In this document: positions 37,971-42,302 of the stretch, one piece after another
Layout: every line of letters starts with the position of its first letter
How positions within the stretch are numbered: position 1 is the stretch's first letter
Sequence record: MG748547
From: Escherichia phage EP75
Reading direction: 5' to 3' (one strand)
DNA: 64,000 nt
Notes under the pieces: generated by a model
Database searches by the model: none
What the model saw: only the letters and a program-made list of their open reading frames with translations
What the model was told of the DNA's origin: nothing
Translations under genes and position numbers: made by a program

Positions 37971-39206
37971 TCATCGTTTCAACAAAGACATGAGGTTTAC
38001 ACTGGTCGACTTCGGATTGTCCTCTATATTCCGGACGGGCATTTTCAGATTAGTGTAAACCTCAGATGGTTCCCAACGCGTACCCTGCTGCAGGTGCCAT
38101 ATATGTAGAGGAACACCCGTTTCAAAGAACACAGGCATCTTCCACTTCTGGACGCCAGGAACGTGCCCTGCAGGAGCTTTTTCGCACAACAGGGTATCTG
38201 GTAGCCAGAGGGAACGGGCTTCCCATAATGCCTTACAGGAGTACTCAGGCCAGATGCGTTCCATGTAGTCGATCTCATCCCAAGTACGCTCGGCATCCCA
38301 CCCGATGTAACGGGTATTCTTCAGACGGAAGAATTTCTTAAGCCAACAAGCACCGGAGGTCTCAAAGTTCAGACGATTGATGAACGTGATGTGGCCGAAC
38401 TCTTCAACGCATTCCTGAAACGCTTTCTCAAGGTCGTTTTCGAGTATATCACATTCTTCGTCTGTAATAGGACAACCGTTGATCTTTTTCTTCCCGTGCT
38501 TGGTCACCCAATCATCACGGTTGGATAAGAACGCCGCGCCGTTACGATTGGATTCGCTACCATCACGGTCACGCAACATGAAACCAGGGACGTCTATATC
38601 CCATATGTTACCGAAGACCATGTTCAGGGCTTCCAGGAAGTTCCATGCGCTCAGGCGACCGAAGTATTTCCATGACATCGCCGTATTCCACAGTTCAGTG
38701 AACTGGTCTTCCTTGGTAGTGCATTCCAACATCCAACGAAAAGAATCCATTTGGGTTTTACCACCCAACCAATCGATATAGGACTGAACGCACGGAATCA
38801 TCTTCGACTTACGATAACGACAATCTGTATCGAAGCGCATACGATCAAAGTTCAGGTTATACCAATCAGAAAATCGCTGAAACTCTTTCGGAGATTGTGG
38901 GGGTACAGGAAATTCACTGTAAATTGTCCATGGTCCAATCCCATTATAGCAACAACCCCACAAAAAGGCCATCCAAATCTTGCGCTCGATCTTCTCGAGC
39001 TGTGTGATGCCTTCTGTAACCTCTATGGCATAATCCATCAGACGGACTTGCTGGTTATGCTCTTCAGTGTAGGATAGCGCCTCCACCCATGCCTTGAGCA
39101 GGTACATGCGATTTTCTGGCTTACGATAATCTACTGCCAGATCAATCGGGTATTTCCATTTTTCAGGGGCTTTATACCCCTGCGGCATTTTAGAAATGTG
39201 TATCAT
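37971..39206 (-). CDS. Hypothetical protein; candidate partner of the thymidine-hypermodification kinase
   Basis: 411 aa with no motif I can name. Lies about 0.8 kb downstream of the P-loop kinase on the same strand. Function is inferred from context only. Confidence 0.3.
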   Translation of the reverse strand: MIHISKMPQGYKAPEKWKYPIDLAVDYRKPENRMYLLKAWVEALSYTEEHNQQVRLMDYAIEVTEGITQLEKIERKIWMAFLWGCCYNGIGPWTIYSEFPVPPQSPKEFQRFSDWYNLNFDRMRFDTDCRYRKSKMIPCVQSYIDWLGGKTQMDSFRWMLECTTKEDQFTELWNTAMSWKYFGRLSAWNFLEALNMVFGNIWDIDVPGFMLRDRDGSESNRNGAAFLSNRDDWVTKHGKKKINGCPITDEECDILENDLEKAFQECVEEFGHITFINRLNFETSGACWLKKFFRLKNTRYIGWDAERTWDEIDYMERIWPEYSCKALWEARSLWLPDTLLCEKAPAGHVPGVQKWKMPVFFETGVPLHIWHLQQGTRWEPSEVYTNLKMPVRNIEDNPKSTSVNLMSLLKR

Positions 39207-39388
39207 CCGATTTTACTCCCGAGTTCAACACGGAACGCCAGATAGAAGAAAGTGGCGATCGATACTGGACAGATCACCAAGAATGGGCGCTGTTGCACCC
39301 CTTCTGTGACCATGACGCCGACCAGCGAAACCGTAAAGATAACGAACATCAGCATCATGAAGATAAAATCAACATGCTTGATTTTCAT
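39203..39388 (-). CDS. Small membrane protein
   Basis: 61 aa with two TM segments. Confidence 0.45.
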   Translation of the reverse strand: MKIKHVDFIFMMLMFVIFTVSLVGVMVTEGVQQRPFLVICPVSIATFFYLAFRVELGSKIG

Positions 39389-39755
39389 CTTTCACTTCCT
39401 CTACAGGAGAAACAACTTCAGGCTCAGCTTCGGGAGCCAGCTGAATTTCTTCGGGGCTTACTACGGGCTGTCCCAGAGACCAGATAGGCAGGAAACGACG
39501 ATCATTCGTCACCAACCAAATTTGCTTGGCGGTTTTCGTCTTTTCGGAAATAAAATGCTGGGCATTGACCTGGGTACGAGCCAAACCCACCTGACGCCAA
39601 GAACCGAAATCCTTAGAAGAAGGATTGGTATTCAGTTGAAATTGTGGGACGATTTTATTCTGTTCCGGATAGTAACGGACAGCGTTAATCATCTTCGCAT
39701 CACCACGGTAATCAATAGCAACAGCGACAACGTTGCGTGGAATGAGGATTTTCAT
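39369..39755 (-). CDS. Hypothetical protein
   Basis: 128 aa. Confidence 0.45.
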   Translation of the reverse strand: MKILIPRNVVAVAIDYRGDAKMINAVRYYPEQNKIVPQFQLNTNPSSKDFGSWRQVGLARTQVNAQHFISEKTKTAKQIWLVTNDRRFLPIWSLGQPVVSPEEIQLAPEAEPEVVSPVEEVKDENQAC

Positions 39756-39756
39756 T

Positions 39757-39960
39757 TTAATTCCTTTTGAAACTCTGAATTATGTTATAGACGAAAGGCG
39801 TTAATAAGATAGCACCCCCCAAATAATATAACGCGTAAACGTTCAATATTTCGGTTGAATCCAACTCAACGATGCCCAAATATTTCATGACACCGACAAG
39901 CACAGCTGTGATACACATCACCAATCCGACGAACACAAAATATTTAGACATCTGTTTCAT
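39757..39960 (-). CDS. Small membrane protein
   Basis: 67 aa with two TM segments. Confidence 0.45.
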   Translation of the reverse strand: MKQMSKYFVFVGLVMCITAVLVGVMKYLGIVELDSTEILNVYALYYLGGAILLTPFVYNIIQSFKRN

Positions 39961-40868: not shown

Positions 40869-41173
40869 TATGCATCTTCCTCAATACGCCAGCTCACACC
40901 ACCCAACCAGGGAGACCAGAAAACAGCAACCTGTGGGCGATCGTTTTCTACAAACTTCACTTTATACTGGTCATCAAAGTTATAGAAAATTTCGTCGTCA
41001 TCAGGTGCCATACCGTTTTCGATCAGAACTCGTTTTAATTCCAACGCTGCGCCAACGGAAGTTGGTGGATTCTGATTACGGATGAAGTTGTTTACATGGA
41101 TAATGATACCATCCATATCACTGTCACCGGAACGCTTGTCAGGGCTTTCTACAACTTTATTTTGTTCTTGCAC
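40868..41173 (-). CDS. Hypothetical protein
   Basis: 101 aa, 1-nt overlap with the downstream gene. Confidence 0.45.
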   Translation of the reverse strand: MQEQNKVVESPDKRSGDSDMDGIIIHVNNFIRNQNPPTSVGAALELKRVLIENGMAPDDDEIFYNFDDQYKVKFVENDRPQVAVFWSPWLGGVSWRIEEDA

Positions 41174-41182
41174 GATGTGCTC

Positions 41183-41965
41183 CTATCGGACATATTGATA
41201 ATGAGAAACCAGGCGATTCACCACTTCATCGAGGTTACGATTTAAGAAGTCAAAGTGGTTTTGGCCTTCTACATGCTTAATATAAAGCATATCCTCGCAA
41301 TTCGAAAGATCCAGTTTTTCATAATTGCCCTGAGGGACGAAGATGACGAAGATGTTATTCAGGGCACACGGCTCAACATACTTCGGATTGTCGTCGATCA
41401 GGACATCGCCAGCAAGCAGATGCTTTTCATCCGTGCTCACGAACCCATTAATCAACGATTCAAAGTGATGGTATGTGAACTGACGCTTGCTGCGTTCGTG
41501 TTCCGGTTCGCATTTTGTAACTGCCACCATTTCCACTTGCTCAAACTTCTGAAGGAGAGAGGCCTTTAAATTCGTAAGGAATTCAACAGCCCCTGGCAGT
41601 GGTGACATTCTGGAATACAGATCAGGCATACGCCACCAATCCATCGGATCACGTCCTGTTGGCGAATCCATCCACTGACCAGCAACGAATACACGGCGCG
41701 TTAACCAGGCCGGATGCGCGCGTTCACGCATGAGGATCGCCAGATCACCAGCGTGTGACATATAGCACTCTTTGGTGATTGGTTGAAATTCAGATGGGTA
41801 GTCGTGACATCCCATATTTTCCGCAGCGGCTTTAGAATTAGAGATATTGAACCATTCAACCCACGGCGAAAGGGAATCAACCAGAGTCAAATCCACATCC
41901 ACCAGAACGCGATATAACCCGCCAATTTTAGAACATGCGTCATACAGACCAACGTGATTATTCAT
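41183..41965 (-). CDS. HAD-family 5'(3')-deoxyribonucleotidase-like phosphatase
   Basis: Motif I DVDLT in VLVDVDLTLVDS. Motif IV LIDDNPKY. Start moved to ATG 41965, just after the upstream stop. Confidence 0.5.
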   Translation of the reverse strand: MNNHVGLYDACSKIGGLYRVLVDVDLTLVDSLSPWVEWFNISNSKAAAENMGCHDYPSEFQPITKECYMSHAGDLAILMRERAHPAWLTRRVFVAGQWMDSPTGRDPMDWWRMPDLYSRMSPLPGAVEFLTNLKASLLQKFEQVEMVAVTKCEPEHERSKRQFTYHHFESLINGFVSTDEKHLLAGDVLIDDNPKYVEPCALNNIFVIFVPQGNYEKLDLSNCEDMLYIKHVEGQNHFDFLNRNLDEVVNRLVSHYQYVR

Positions 41966-42302
41966 CAGATTTCTCCACTTGATCATAACCAGTTGCGGTG
42001 CATTGTTCTTCGGTGCAATCGGCATACAGAACCACAGAAGATTCCTTCACGTAAGTGGTGCAGTGATAGGTTTCATCTTCCTGGATGGAATCATCATAAT
42101 TGCAAACAGTTTGCAACGGACCAGGAGTGGTGTTGTCCAAAGCTGCATGTGCCTTGATGGTGTCTTCCATCTTATTCACCGCTTGCTGATTGGTGAACGT
42201 CGGCGCATCGAGGTCAACGGTAGACGCAACGTCCAGAAGGGTAGAGCATGCAGTGGTAGAGAAAGCCAGAGCACACACCAGAAGAATCTTATTGAGTTTC
42301 AT
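41958..42302 (-). CDS. Putative lipoprotein
   Basis: MKLNKILLVCALAFSTTAC signal/lipobox-like N-terminus. Promoter hairpin 42331-42362 upstream. Confidence 0.45.
   Translation of the reverse strand: MKLNKILLVCALAFSTTACSTLLDVASTVDLDAPTFTNQQAVNKMEDTIKAHAALDNTTPGPLQTVCNYDDSIQEDETYHCTTYVKESSVVLYADCTEEQCTATGYDQVEKSDE

What the first reader, a model, noticed from the sequence alone, without database searches (positions are those of the whole stretch)
37971..42025. Candidate thymidine-hypermodification genes next to the DNA polymerase
Immediately downstream of the polymerase on the same strand lie four relevant genes. They are a HAD 5'(3')-deoxyribonucleotidase-like phosphatase (DVDLT / IDDNP motifs), a roughly 300-aa kinase with an N-terminal P-loop (GTSGTGKGT), small membrane proteins, and a 411-aa protein with no recognisable motif. 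ViI-type phages are reported to replace thymidine through 5-hydroxymethyl-dU. This base is phosphorylated in DNA by a P-loop kinase and then substituted to give an aminoethoxy-methyl-dU. The kinase matches that role. The 411-aa protein is a candidate for the transferase step, purely by context. The dUMP hydroxymethylase is not in this window.
Basis: partly seen in the sequence, partly recalled or inferred. Interest (0 to 1): 0.6.

Follow-up and report, generated by a model that had tools for sequence, protein, structure and literature searches.

The report
Thymidine hypermodification genes with clamp tails
These genes are close copies of the already characterised enzymes that phage ViI uses to turn thymidine into an aminoethoxy-methyl base after replication; the only unreported feature is that these enzymes carry the same short peptide as the phage DNA polymerase's sliding-clamp-binding tail, which suggests they ride on the replication clamp.

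Summary
The window comes from a Kuttervirus (ViI-like Ackermannviridae).

- The 301-aa P-loop protein scores 498.6 bits on Pfam HMUD2. It is 86% identical to ViI gp243, a proven 5-hmdU DNA kinase.
- The 411-aa protein does belong to a recognisable family: Pfam ADDT, 194.7 bits. It is 91% identical to ViI gp247, the proven serine:DNA transferase, and keeps the essential Glu/Cys.
- The dUMP hydroxymethylase homologue and the second kinase (gp67) are not in the window.
- The HAD protein is a 5'(3')-deoxyribonucleotidase-like phosphatase. Its homologues stay within about 2.5 kb of the kinase in five lineages, but its role is inferred only.

One feature appears unreported. The kinase, the transferase, ViI gp160 and a loop of the PLP enzyme carry the same short motif as the polymerase's C-terminal tail. 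That tail aligns with the clamp-binding tail of RB69 gp43. The motif changes together in all these proteins across six phage lineages. This suggests clamp-tethered, replication-coupled modification, which is inferred and untested.

The parts
39963..40868 (-). 5-hmdU DNA kinase, clade 2 (orthologue of ViI gp243): phosphorylates the 5-hydroxymethyl group of 5-hmdU in DNA
   Evidence: Pfam HMUD2 at 498.6 bits, cutoff 25, full length 1-300/298. 86% identical to ViI YP_004327565. ViI gp243 activity was shown in vitro (PMC8989533).
40818..40844 (-). Walker A P-loop GTSGTGKGT of the kinase (residues 9-17)
   Evidence: Direct translation.
39966..40001 (-). C-terminal tail SSVSLLGLLSKG of the kinase, preceded by a Lys/Ser/Thr/Ala-rich linker. 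Candidate sliding-clamp-binding peptide.
   Evidence: Same motif as the polymerase tail. HMUD2 homologues carry lineage-specific versions.
37971..39206 (-). Serine:DNA transferase (ADDT / aGPT-Pplase clade 2; orthologue of ViI gp247): replaces the phosphate of 5-PmdU with serine through its side-chain oxygen
   Evidence: Pfam ADDT at 194.7 bits, cutoff 26.2. 91% identical to ViI YP_004327568 with no gaps. AlphaFold model at pLDDT 89.9; its only real PDB match is PaMx11 gp46/PUGT, 8z2n.
38346..38363 (-). Catalytic motif E282-T283-S-G-A-C287 of the transferase
   Evidence: E282, T283 and C287 are invariant in 30 homologues. They correspond to the Glu243/Thr244/Cys247 motif of PaMx11 PUGT (PMC11472151). 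Cys and Glu are essential in ViI gp247 (PMC8989533). The equivalence rests on the motif, not on a residue-level alignment.
37974..38006 (-). C-terminal tail TSVNLMSLLKR of the transferase, after a disordered linker. Candidate sliding-clamp-binding peptide.
   Evidence: In the model, residues 386-402 have pLDDT <50 and a short helix spans 405-410. Motif shared with the polymerase. It co-varies across lineages.
41183..41965 (-). HAD-superfamily 5'(3')-deoxyribonucleotidase-like phosphatase (orthologue of Vi01_194). The ORF is open up to 42025.
   Evidence: Pfam NT5C at 31.4 bits, cutoff 24.8. 99% identical to ViI. DVDLT and DD motifs are invariant in 24 homologues. The model's best fold hits are human mitochondrial and cytosolic deoxyribonucleotidases: 1q92, E 6.5e-8, TMt 0.71. 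Homologues lie next to the kinase/ADDT genes in five lineages. No polymerase-type tail.
48532..49857 (-). PLP-dependent O-serinyl-T decarboxylase (orthologue of ViI gp226). The N-terminal start is uncertain.
   Evidence: 98% identical to ViI YP_004327553 over 395 aa, including the Lys equivalent to ViI K92 (K109 here). Pfam PALP scores 30 bits, below its cutoff of 35. ViI gp226 activity is shown in PMC8989533.
48838..48870 (-). Internal loop KSVSLAGLLMG of the PLP enzyme (residues 330-340): an internal copy of the polymerase-tail motif
   Evidence: It aligns with KPKTRRLFGG in the Vibrio phage K471 homologue, which is that lineage's tail motif. L015's PLP homologue has DSLFGEPATLFG just upstream of the aligned position in the same variable region.
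42363..45359 (-). T4/RB69-type family-B DNA polymerase (start as annotated in ViI; the ORF is open to 45461)
   Evidence: Pfam DNA_pol_B and exo domains; PHROG 262 at 1070 bits.
42366..42407 (-). Polymerase C-terminal tail KRRVNLLSMMGKKG, positionally equivalent to the sliding-clamp-binding tail of RB69 gp43
   Evidence: phmmer aligns ...kRRVNLLSM with RB69 ...eKKASLFDM at the extreme C-terminus. The clamp-binding role of the C-terminal residues of gp43 is described in PMC2988020.
40868..41173 (-). DUF7254 protein (101 aa). Function unknown. Found only in the Kuttervirus and Limestonevirus loci, so probably not a core part.
   Evidence: Pfam DUF7254 at 161.5 bits. Found in Dickeya RC-2014 but not in Vibrio K471 or the other loci.
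39203..39960 (-). Three small genes between the kinase and the transferase: a 67-aa membrane protein (39757-39960), a 128-aa protein (39369-39755) and a 61-aa membrane protein (39203-39388). Functions unknown.
   Evidence: PHROGs 4514, 4163 and 7943. Absent from Vibrio K471, where kinase and transferase are adjacent.
41958..42320 (-). DUF7292 lipoprotein-like protein (120 aa) between the polymerase and the HAD gene
   Evidence: Pfam DUF7292 at 179.2 bits.

Best explanation
The region is the polymerase-proximal half of the ViI-type thymidine hypermodification pathway of a Kuttervirus.

The pathway as established for ViI:
1. 5-hmdUTP is made elsewhere in the genome, by a thymidylate-synthase-like dUMP hydroxymethyltransferase that is not in this window, and is incorporated by the phage polymerase.
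2. The P-loop kinase (39963-40868) transfers one phosphate from ATP to the 5-hydroxymethyl group of 5-hmdU in DNA, giving 5-PmdU.
3. The 411-aa transferase (37971-39206) attacks C6 of the base with Cys287, assisted by Glu282. It expels the phosphate to form an exocyclic methylene and lets the side-chain hydroxyl of free serine add, giving O-serinyl-T.
4. The PLP enzyme at 48532-49857 decarboxylates this to 5-(2-aminoethoxy)methyl-dU.

These steps are shown experimentally for the ViI orthologues. They are transferred here by 86-98% identity and conserved gene order.

Inferred, not shown:
(a) The kinase, the transferase and a loop of the PLP enzyme (and, in ViI, gp160) carry a copy of the polymerase's own clamp-binding tail motif. 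They are therefore probably recruited to the gp45-like sliding clamp, so that modification is coupled to replication. I put this at about 0.6.
(b) The HAD protein is a nucleotide-pool 5'(3')-deoxyribonucleotidase. It most plausibly removes dTMP so that 5-hmdUTP competes better with dTTP. I put this at about 0.4.
For: Identity of the phage: 97.4% DNA identity to Kuttervirus phages over the whole region, with Kuttervirus taxonomy.

Enzymes:
- Kinase: HMUD2 at 498.6 bits; 86% identical to ViI gp243.
- Transferase: ADDT at 194.7 bits; 91% identical to gp247. E282, T283 and C287 are invariant in 30 homologues. The top fold match is the 5-PmdU glycinyltransferase 8z2n.
- PLP enzyme: 98% identical to gp226, with the PLP lysine kept.
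- Gene order is identical to ViI orf00236-orf00247.
- The biochemistry of ViI gp243, gp247 and gp226 was done with purified proteins (PMC8989533).

Clamp tails:
- The strict motif occurs at the C-terminus of only 4 of 201 ORFs in the window and 4 of 536 in ViI. Those ORFs are the polymerase, the kinase, the transferase and a small Zn-ribbon protein. Expected counts are 0.02-0.04, and 0 of 500 shuffles reach the observed number.
- The polymerase tail aligns with the RB69 gp43 clamp-binding tail (PMC2988020).
- Tails differ between lineages but match within each:
  - Vibrio K471: [KR]L[WF] in the polymerase, kinase, ADDT, HMUDK_hel, the gp33-like factor and the Zn-ribbon protein, and in no other ORF of 607.
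  - L016: xLW in the polymerase, two kinases, ADDT and HMUDK_hel.
  - L013: SLFDF / SLEDFFS / LEFFDIFH.
  - L014: NVFDIF / NVLDFFG / SILDLL.
- Ten further ADDT/kinase pairs are concordant. I paired them only by identical longest-contig length.
- The PLP loop switches from KSVSLAGLLMG to KTRRLFGG.

HAD: NT5C family, intact motifs and a deoxyribonucleotidase-like fold. Homologues lie near the kinase in five lineages.
Against: - No chemistry or binding was measured for this phage. Serine specificity is assumed from 91% identity.
- ViI gp243 and gp247 work in vitro without any clamp (PMC8989533), so the tail is not needed for catalysis.
- The Kuttervirus tails are hydrophobic and basic, not hydrophobic and acidic as in T4.
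- The ViI gp33- and gp55-like proteins do not carry the Kuttervirus motif. gp33 ends in KSKKLI.
- K471's polymerase has both a VNLFAL segment and the RKLW end, so which element contacts the clamp is unclear.
- The motif patterns were defined after seeing the sequences, so the shuffle statistics are somewhat circular.
- The other kinase (gp67 type, HMUD1) lacks the tail.
- In one lineage (L013) a homologue of the HAD sits in a cluster with a Tet/JBP dioxygenase. A role in excluding dTMP from the pool makes less sense there.
- Human mdN, the closest fold match, also hydrolyses dUMP (my own knowledge). dUMP is the hydroxymethylase's substrate.
Confidence: 0.92

Rival explanations
1. The P-loop protein is an ordinary nucleotide kinase (guanylate, dNMP or thymidylate kinase), as many GenBank records and PHROG 4409 label it. 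It would act on the nucleotide pool rather than on DNA.
For: PHROG 4409 carries the name 'guanylate kinase'. RefSeq and GenBank annotate ViI Vi01_196 and its homologues that way. The protein has a P-loop NTPase fold.
Against: Pfam gives only HMUD2 at 498.6 bits and no nucleotide-kinase family. The 86%-identical ViI gp243 phosphorylates 5-hmdU within DNA (PMC8989533). The protein carries a polymerase-like tail, which the pool enzymes examined here (the thymidylate-synthase homologue and the HAD phosphatase) lack, though the DNA-acting gp67 kinase lacks it too.
Confidence: 0.02
2. The shared C-terminal motif is real but does not bind the sliding clamp. It docks these proteins onto another common hub, such as the helicase/primase, SSB or a replication-factory scaffold. 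Alternatively it is a localisation or turnover signal.
For: Binding was not tested. The Kuttervirus motif is basic rather than acidic. The ViI gp33- and gp55-like proteins, the classic T4 clamp clients, lack it. K471's polymerase has two candidate elements.
Against: The polymerase copy aligns with the RB69 gp43 tail, whose complex with the clamp has been crystallised (PMC2988020). In K471 the gp33-like late-transcription co-activator, a clamp client in T4, shares the tail. ADDT from a small siphovirus-like contig, with no polymerase or clamp gene in the 18 kb examined, has no tail.
Confidence: 0.25
3. The HAD phosphatase has nothing to do with hypermodification. It is a general deoxyribonucleotidase, as found in many large lytic phages, that recycles or disposes of nucleotides from host DNA. 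It stays next to the polymerase only through inherited gene order.
For: NT5C-type enzymes occur widely in phages (PHROG 2643). The homologues found by the protein search all come from Ackermannviridae-like contigs, so part of the linkage is shared ancestry. ViI lysate reconstitution of 5-NeOmdU did not need it (PMC5889632).
Against: Homologues at 21-31% identity still lie within about 2.5 kb of the kinase/ADDT genes in five lineages with otherwise rearranged neighbourhoods. One of these (L014) has no polymerase gene nearby. Pool remodelling by a dTTPase is documented for phage 15599, and dTTPase activity for PhiW-14 infection (PMC13458397).
Confidence: 0.45
4. The cluster makes a final base different from 5-NeOmdU, because the transferase (9% diverged from ViI gp247) accepts another amino acid or nucleophile.
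For: ADDT enzymes of different phages use glycine, serine or putrescine (PMC8989533) and 1,3-diaminopropane (PMC13458397). In one case two substitutions let a transferase use glycine (PMC13458397).
Against: The differences from gp247 lie mostly at the N-terminus and around residues 150-200. The conserved blocks and the ET..C motif are identical. The partner decarboxylase is 98% identical. CBA120, another Kuttervirus, has the same base as ViI (PMC11721090).
Confidence: 0.05

Closest known systems
Salmonella phage ViI (Vi01) gp243, gp247 and gp226: 5-hmdU DNA kinase, serine:DNA transferase and PLP decarboxylase (Lee et al. 2018 PNAS, PMC5889632; Lee et al. 2021 NAR, PMC8989533)
   Same: Same genus and same gene order downstream of the polymerase. 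Identities are 86%, 91% and 98%. The P-loop, the Glu/Cys pair and the PLP lysine are the same.
   Different: Nothing functional is detectable. The kinase's linker is 3 residues shorter. The first ~46 residues of the window's PLP ORF (29 of ViI gp226) did not align. The tail motif described here is also present in the ViI proteins, but the papers I read do not mention it.
PaMx11 gp46 (PUGT, PDB 8Z2M/8Z2N) and M6 gp51: 5-PmdU glycinyltransferases
   Same: Same Pfam family (ADDT). Same Glu-Thr...Cys catalytic motif. It is the only significant fold match: probability 1.0, TMt 0.58.
   Different: Only about 14% identity, and not detectable by sequence search against the PDB. The window protein is about 120 residues longer. 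The donor is serine through its oxygen rather than glycine through its nitrogen. The window protein has a disordered linker plus a tail.
C-terminal sliding-clamp-binding epitopes of T4/RB69 gp43, gp33 and gp55 (review PMC2988020)
   Same: A short hydrophobic peptide at the extreme C-terminus after a variable, flexible linker. It is shared by otherwise unrelated proteins of one phage. The polymerase copy aligns with the RB69 tail.
   Different: The clients here are DNA base-modifying enzymes, which are not among the T4 clamp ligands named in that review (clamp loader, gp43, gp55, gp33). The Kuttervirus version is basic rather than acidic. Binding is untested.
Eukaryotic DNMT1 PIP-box binding to PCNA (my own knowledge: Chuang et al. 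1997)
   Same: By concept: a DNA-modifying enzyme recruited to newly replicated DNA through a short clamp-binding peptide.
   Different: Unrelated proteins and chemistry. This is an analogy only.
Human mitochondrial and cytosolic 5'(3')-deoxyribonucleotidases (mdN, cdN; PDB 1Q92, 2I7D)
   Same: HAD fold, DxDxT and DD motifs, Pfam NT5C. They are the best structural matches.
   Different: 14-18% identity. The phage protein has an extra insert of about 60 residues in the cap region and a C-terminal helical extension. Its substrate is unknown.
dTTPase/dUTPase gp18 of Acinetobacter phage SH-Ab 15599, and the PhiW-14 dTTPase activity (PMC13458397)
   Same: A nucleotide-pool enzyme that lowers dTTP in a thymidine-hypermodifying phage. 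This is the precedent for the role proposed for the HAD protein.
   Different: A different fold (dUTPase-like) and a different reaction (triphosphate to monophosphate).

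Membership tests
5-hmdU DNA kinase clade 2 (Pfam PF18747 HMUD2; type member ViI gp243) | Full-length match to the family model above the curated threshold | tested here: met
   498.6 bits against a cutoff of 25, residues 1-300 on profile 1-298.
5-hmdU DNA kinase clade 2 (Pfam PF18747 HMUD2; type member ViI gp243) | N-terminal Walker A P-loop | tested here: met
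   GTSGTGKGT at residues 9-17, coordinates 40818-40844.
5-hmdU DNA kinase clade 2 (Pfam PF18747 HMUD2; type member ViI gp243) | Orthology and synteny with the characterised enzyme | tested here: met
   86% identity over the full length. Same position: polymerase, lipoprotein, HAD, DUF7254, kinase.
5-hmdU DNA kinase clade 2 (Pfam PF18747 HMUD2; type member ViI gp243) | ATP-dependent phosphorylation of 5-hmdU within DNA | not testable with these tools
   Shown only for ViI gp243 (PMC8989533).
Amino acid:DNA transferase (Pfam PF18724 ADDT; aGPT-Pplase clade 2 in PMC8989533) | Match to the family model above threshold | tested here: met
   194.7 bits against a cutoff of 26.2.
Amino acid:DNA transferase (Pfam PF18724 ADDT; aGPT-Pplase clade 2 in PMC8989533) | Essential cysteine with a neighbouring glutamate | tested here: met
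   E282, T283 and C287 are invariant in 30 homologues. They match the Glu243/Thr244/Cys247 motif of PUGT. Here the Glu-Cys spacing is one residue longer than in the family consensus and in PUGT, as it also is in the active ViI gp247.
Amino acid:DNA transferase (Pfam PF18724 ADDT; aGPT-Pplase clade 2 in PMC8989533) | All-helical fold like the solved family member | tested here: met
   The model (pLDDT 89.9) has 8z2n as top hit: probability 1.0, TMt 0.58, E 1.4e-2. The next hits have probability below 0.1.
Amino acid:DNA transferase (Pfam PF18724 ADDT; aGPT-Pplase clade 2 in PMC8989533) | Transfer of serine through its oxygen onto 5-PmdU DNA | not testable with these tools
   Inferred from 91% identity to ViI gp247.
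PLP-dependent O-SerT decarboxylase (ViI gp226) | Homology to gp226 with the Schiff-base lysine | tested here: met
   98% identity over 395 aa. ViI K92 corresponds to K109 in GINGSKLRQ.
PLP-dependent O-SerT decarboxylase (ViI gp226) | Match to Pfam PALP (the fold-type II PLP family, by my own knowledge of Pfam) above threshold | tested here: inconclusive
   30 bits, E 4.4e-7, below the curated cutoff of 35.
HAD 5'(3')-deoxyribonucleotidase (Pfam PF06941 NT5C) | Family model above threshold | tested here: met
   31.4 bits against a cutoff of 24.8. Only the C-terminal half is covered. The distant K471 homologue scores 19.3 bits, below the cutoff.
HAD 5'(3')-deoxyribonucleotidase (Pfam PF06941 NT5C) | HAD catalytic motifs: DxDxT nucleophile motif and the DD metal motif | tested here: met
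   D23, D25, T27 and D191, D192 are invariant in 24 homologues. They align with DMDGV and LIDDRP of human mdN.
HAD 5'(3')-deoxyribonucleotidase (Pfam PF06941 NT5C) | Fold closest to deoxyribonucleotidases among HAD enzymes | tested here: met
   The top 11 PDB hits are mdN, cdN or a bacterial deoxyribonucleotidase-like protein: E 6.5e-8 to 1.7e-6, TMt 0.60-0.76.
HAD 5'(3')-deoxyribonucleotidase (Pfam PF06941 NT5C) | Hydrolysis of deoxyribonucleoside monophosphates, and which ones | not testable with these tools
The dTMP preference is a hypothesis.
T4-type sliding-clamp-binding C-terminal epitope | Short hydrophobic peptide at the extreme C-terminus after a flexible linker | tested here: met
   ADDT: residues 386-402 at pLDDT <50, then a helix at 405-410. 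Kinase: a Lys/Ser/Thr/Ala-rich linker, then SSVSLLGLLSKG. The PLP enzyme is an exception, since its copy is internal.
T4-type sliding-clamp-binding C-terminal epitope | Same peptide as the phage's own polymerase tail, which is homologous to a proven clamp-binding tail | tested here: met
   The polymerase's KRRVNLLSMM aligns with RB69's EKKASLFDMF. The motif is shared within each of six lineages and differs between them.
T4-type sliding-clamp-binding C-terminal epitope | Hydrophobic and acidic character, as in T4 gp43, gp33 and gp55 | tested here: not met
   Kuttervirus and K471 tails are hydrophobic and basic. Only the L013 and L014 lineages have acidic tails.
T4-type sliding-clamp-binding C-terminal epitope | Physical binding to the gp45-like clamp | not testable with these tools
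   The clamp gene (ViI Vi01_135c) is outside the window. Complex prediction and binding assays are not available here.

The most novel reading that the evidence does not exclude
The DNA-level enzymes of thymidine hypermodification are clients of the phage sliding clamp. These are the clade-2 5-hmdU DNA kinase, the amino acid:DNA transferase, the HMUDK_hel/gp160 protein and, through an internal loop, the PLP decarboxylase. Each carries a copy of the polymerase's clamp-binding peptide, and this peptide co-evolves with the polymerase tail across at least six phage lineages. Hypermodification would then be physically coupled to the replication fork. That would be a prokaryotic-virus counterpart of DNMT1-PCNA coupling, and it could explain the old observation that modification occurs 'coincident with or immediately after replication'.
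Probability: 0.6. Interest if true: 0.65.

Novelty: already known. Interest (0 to 1): 0.4.

Why it matters
As a gene assignment it matters little. It confirms that this Kuttervirus has the ViI pathway, and it shows that the database labels 'guanylate kinase' and 'hypothetical protein' are wrong or uninformative.

The shared, co-varying tail could matter more if confirmed.
- It gives a concrete, cheap test of how post-replicative hypermodification is targeted to new DNA. The experiments are peptide-clamp binding, tail deletions, and assays on clamp-loaded DNA.
- It may explain why the in vitro kinases convert only a fraction of sites.
- It offers a sequence signature for finding further DNA-modifying enzymes in large phages: any protein that ends in the polymerase's own tail.
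- It would add base-modifying enzymes to the 'toolbelt' of phage sliding clamps.

Tried and rejected
1. Sequence searches of the PDB with the transferase, alone and as a 22-sequence profile, did not find PaMx11 gp46. Only the fold search did.
2. The kinase has no PDB relative by sequence.
3. NCBIfam has no model for any of the seven proteins tested.
4. I looked in the window for the other pathway genes: the gp67/HMUD1 kinase, gp160/HMUDK_hel and the thymidylate-synthase-like hydroxymethylase. None is present.
5. I considered that the small membrane proteins, the 128-aa protein and DUF7254 belong to the pathway. I rejected them as core parts because they are absent from Vibrio phage K471 and the other loci.
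6. I considered that the HAD enzyme acts on DNA by removing phosphate from 5-PmdU. This seems less likely because it lacks the tail or loop motif that four of the DNA-level enzymes carry, and its fold is that of nucleotide-pool enzymes. It is not excluded.
7. The promoter and terminator scans are only suggestive. Promoter-like sites occur at chance frequency (21 found against 20.9 expected).
9. The review by Hutinet et al. (PMC11163837) is not held in the library.

Full report
**1. What is there**

Between 37971 and 42320 the minus strand carries a tight run of genes directly downstream of a T4/RB69-type family-B DNA polymerase (42363-45359/45461):
- a 120-aa DUF7292 lipoprotein-like gene
- a HAD phosphatase gene (41183-41965; the ORF is open to 42025)
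- a 101-aa DUF7254 gene
- a 301-aa P-loop protein gene (39963-40868)
- genes for a 67-aa membrane protein, a 128-aa protein and a 61-aa membrane protein
- a 411-aa protein gene (37971-39206)

The 4-kb stretch matches 272 phage records, nearly all Ackermannviridae. The best matches, at 97.4% identity, are Salmonella phages GEC_vB_GOT, GEC_vB_N6 and SeF3a of the genus Kuttervirus. The only corrections are the extra small genes and the fact that the 411-aa protein belongs to a recognisable family.

**2. Identity of the enzymes**

Kinase and transferase:
- Pfam gives HMUD2 ('5-hmdU DNA kinase 2') at 498.6 bits for the kinase, and no nucleotide-kinase family.
- Pfam gives ADDT ('amino acid:DNA transferase') at 194.7 bits for the 411-aa protein.
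- In the ViI genome the same gene order is present as orf00236 (polymerase) to orf00247.
- The window proteins are 86% identical to YP_004327565 (gp243) and 91% identical to YP_004327568 (gp247).

Lee et al. (PMC8989533) showed the following with purified proteins:
- gp243 transfers one phosphate to 5-hmdU in DNA.
- gp247 transfers serine to 5-PmdU, giving O-serinyl-T. This requires a conserved Cys and a neighbouring Glu.
- gp226, a PLP enzyme, decarboxylates O-SerT to 5-NeOmdU.

The Glu/Cys motif is conserved here: E282, T283 and C287 are invariant in 30 homologues. It corresponds by motif to Glu243/Thr244/Cys247 of the crystallised PaMx11 glycinyltransferase (PMC11472151). An AlphaFold model of the 411-aa protein (pLDDT 89.9) has that structure (8z2n) as its only meaningful PDB match. 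Sequence searches of the PDB fail to find it.

It is 98% identical and keeps the PLP lysine.

The remaining pathway genes of ViI are not in the window. These are the thymidylate-synthase-like dUMP hydroxymethyltransferase next to the gp67 kinase, and gp160. The window begins inside the gp41 helicase gene, about 3 kb short of the first cluster.

**3. The HAD phosphatase**

- It is 99% identical to Vi01_194 and passes the Pfam NT5C threshold.
- It has invariant DxDxT and DD motifs.
- Its model (pLDDT 87.5) is closest to the human mitochondrial and cytosolic 5'(3')-deoxyribonucleotidases.
- Homologues at 21-31% identity lie within about 2.5 kb of the kinase/transferase genes in Vibrio phage K471 and in three metagenomic phage contigs with otherwise different neighbourhoods. 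This argues for a functional link.
- It was not needed for lysate reconstitution in ViI and carries no polymerase-type tail.

My best guess is a pool enzyme that removes dTMP. This would complement the dTTPase activities known from other hypermodifying phages (PMC13458397). This is inference only. A general nucleotide-recycling role is almost as likely.

**4. A feature I did not find reported**

The polymerase, the kinase and the transferase all end in the same peptide:
- polymerase: KRRVNLLSMMGKKG
- kinase: KSSVSLLGLLSKG
- transferase: KSTSVNLMSLLKR

How specific the motif is:
- In the window only one other ORF of 201 has it, a 69-aa Zn-ribbon-like ORF at 3246-3455.
- In the whole ViI genome the same four ORFs of 536 have it.
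- ViI gp160 has a variant, GSVNLLDRLKKPE.
- Shuffles give 0.02-0.04 expected.

The polymerase tail aligns residue for residue with the C-terminus of RB69 gp43 (EKKASLFDMFDF). The RB69 clamp was co-crystallised with the polymerase's 11 C-terminal residues. T4 gp43, gp33 and gp55 share interchangeable clamp-binding tails after flexible linkers (PMC2988020).

The decisive point is co-variation. Tails differ between lineages but match within each:
- **Vibrio phage K471.** Exactly six ORFs of 607 end in [KR]L[WF]. They are the polymerase, the HMUD2 kinase, ADDT, HMUDK_hel, the gp33-like late-transcription factor, and the homologue of the Zn-ribbon protein.
- **Contig L016.** The polymerase, two HMUD2 kinases, ADDT and HMUDK_hel all end in xLW.
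- **L013.** The tails are SLFDF, SLEDFFS and LEFFDIFH.
- **L014.** The tails are NVFDIF, NVLDFFG and SILDLL.
- **L015.** The tails are ARPLFD, SVFDLI and AKPLF.
- **Further pairs.** Ten more ADDT/kinase pairs, matched only by identical longest-contig length, are concordant.
- **A contrast.** ADDT from a 35-kb siphovirus-like contig, with no polymerase or clamp gene in the 18 kb examined, has no tail.
- **The PLP decarboxylase.** It carries the motif in an internal loop that switches in step. KSVSLAGLLMG here aligns with KTRRLFGG in K471. L015's PLP homologue has DSLFGEPATLFG just upstream of the aligned position in the same variable region.

The pool-level enzymes (the thymidylate-synthase homologue and the HAD protein) and the gp67-type kinase lack the motif.

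I infer that these DNA-level enzymes are tethered to the gp45-like clamp. This fits the old statement that modification occurs coincident with or immediately after replication (PMC5889632).

Caveats:
- Binding is untested.
- The Kuttervirus tails are basic rather than acidic.
- The ViI gp33- and gp55-like proteins lack this motif.
- The ViI enzymes work in vitro without a clamp.
- The patterns were defined after seeing the sequences.

The papers on this pathway that I checked do not mention a clamp. The library is incomplete, so prior description elsewhere cannot be excluded.

**5. Verdict**

The finding as submitted is correct and already known. The genes are orthologues of characterised ViI enzymes, so on that basis alone it is ordinary. 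The interest score is raised moderately by the co-varying polymerase-type tails. They are directly testable and, if confirmed, would add a mechanism for replication-coupled hypermodification.

Noticed in passing
window 3246-3455 (+): A 69-aa ORF with Cys pairs (CSCGG...CPCC, Zn-ribbon-like) ends in KGKINLLNMMRK, the same tail as the polymerase. It is the orthologue of ViI Vi01_049c. It is homologous (29% identity) to Vibrio phage K471 VPHK471_0079, which ends in that lineage's KTKKLW tail and sits immediately upstream of the DNA ligase gene. It could be a small clamp-binding adaptor. Its function is unknown.
   Followed up: partly
window 49927-50604 (-): A 225-aa ORF directly upstream of the PLP decarboxylase gene (orthologue of Vi01_181) ends in KSFFRRLMDFLTK. 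This is a hydrophobic and basic C-terminus loosely resembling the tail motif. No homologue was found in K471.
   Followed up: partly
window 13346-13864 (-), 24456-25031 (-), 16196-16855 (-): Other nucleotide-metabolism genes are in the window: dCMP deaminase (97% identical to ViI), a MazG-like pyrophosphatase (only 73% identical to ViI, much more diverged than its neighbours) and a QueC-like protein (90%). The first two may feed or clean the dUMP/dTTP pools for the pathway.
   Followed up: no
L013 8616-13251 (Logan ERR12510853 contig, 49.7 kb): A T4-like contig carries a Tet_JBP dioxygenase, ADDT, a P-loop kinase (Ploopntkinase3-like) and an NT5C homologue next to the polymerase. NAPRTase and ribose-phosphate pyrophosphokinase genes lie upstream. 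This suggests hypermodification that starts from oxidation of thymine in DNA rather than from a dUMP hydroxymethylase. The tails are acidic and RB69-like (ELSLFDF).
   Followed up: partly
L005 6341-7834 (Dickeya phage RC-2014): In Limestonevirus the HMUD2 kinase is the C-terminal part of a 497-aa protein annotated as an endonuclease (PHROG 15209 has the same architecture). The polymerase gene there is split by HNH/homing endonuclease genes. The fusion still ends in the tail SRSLLDLMKKG.
   Followed up: no
ViI Vi01_069c (L003 44283-44525) and K471 polymerase (L004 2494-5472): The tail classes are not fully consistent. The ViI gp33-like protein ends in KSKKLI, which resembles the Vibrio-type K-K-L-hydrophobic tail rather than ViI's own polymerase tail. 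K471's polymerase has both a VNLFAL segment at the RB69-equivalent position and a 25-residue basic extension ending in RKLW. There may be two binding sites or two motifs.
   Followed up: no
window 39963-40868; ViI Vi01_061c (L003 38203-38865): Database names are misleading. The clade-2 5-hmdU DNA kinase is labelled 'guanylate kinase' (PHROG 4409, RefSeq). The clade-1 kinase gp67 is labelled 'terminase small subunit' in RefSeq ViI and in K471.
   Followed up: yes
window 42330-42366: Between the polymerase stop codon and the DUF7292 start lie a GC-rich hairpin (AGGGGGAATTATATCCCCCT) and a promoter-like site (TTGATT-18-TATAAT, minus strand). Terminator-like hairpins follow the transferase gene at 37872-37891 and 37729-37750. 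This suggests the genes from DUF7292 to the transferase form one transcription unit. These are consensus matches only.
   Followed up: partly
window 49720-49857 (-): The first ~46 residues of the 441-aa PLP-enzyme ORF do not align with the annotated N-terminus of ViI gp226 (424 aa). The true start codon, or an indel relative to ViI, is unresolved.
   Followed up: no
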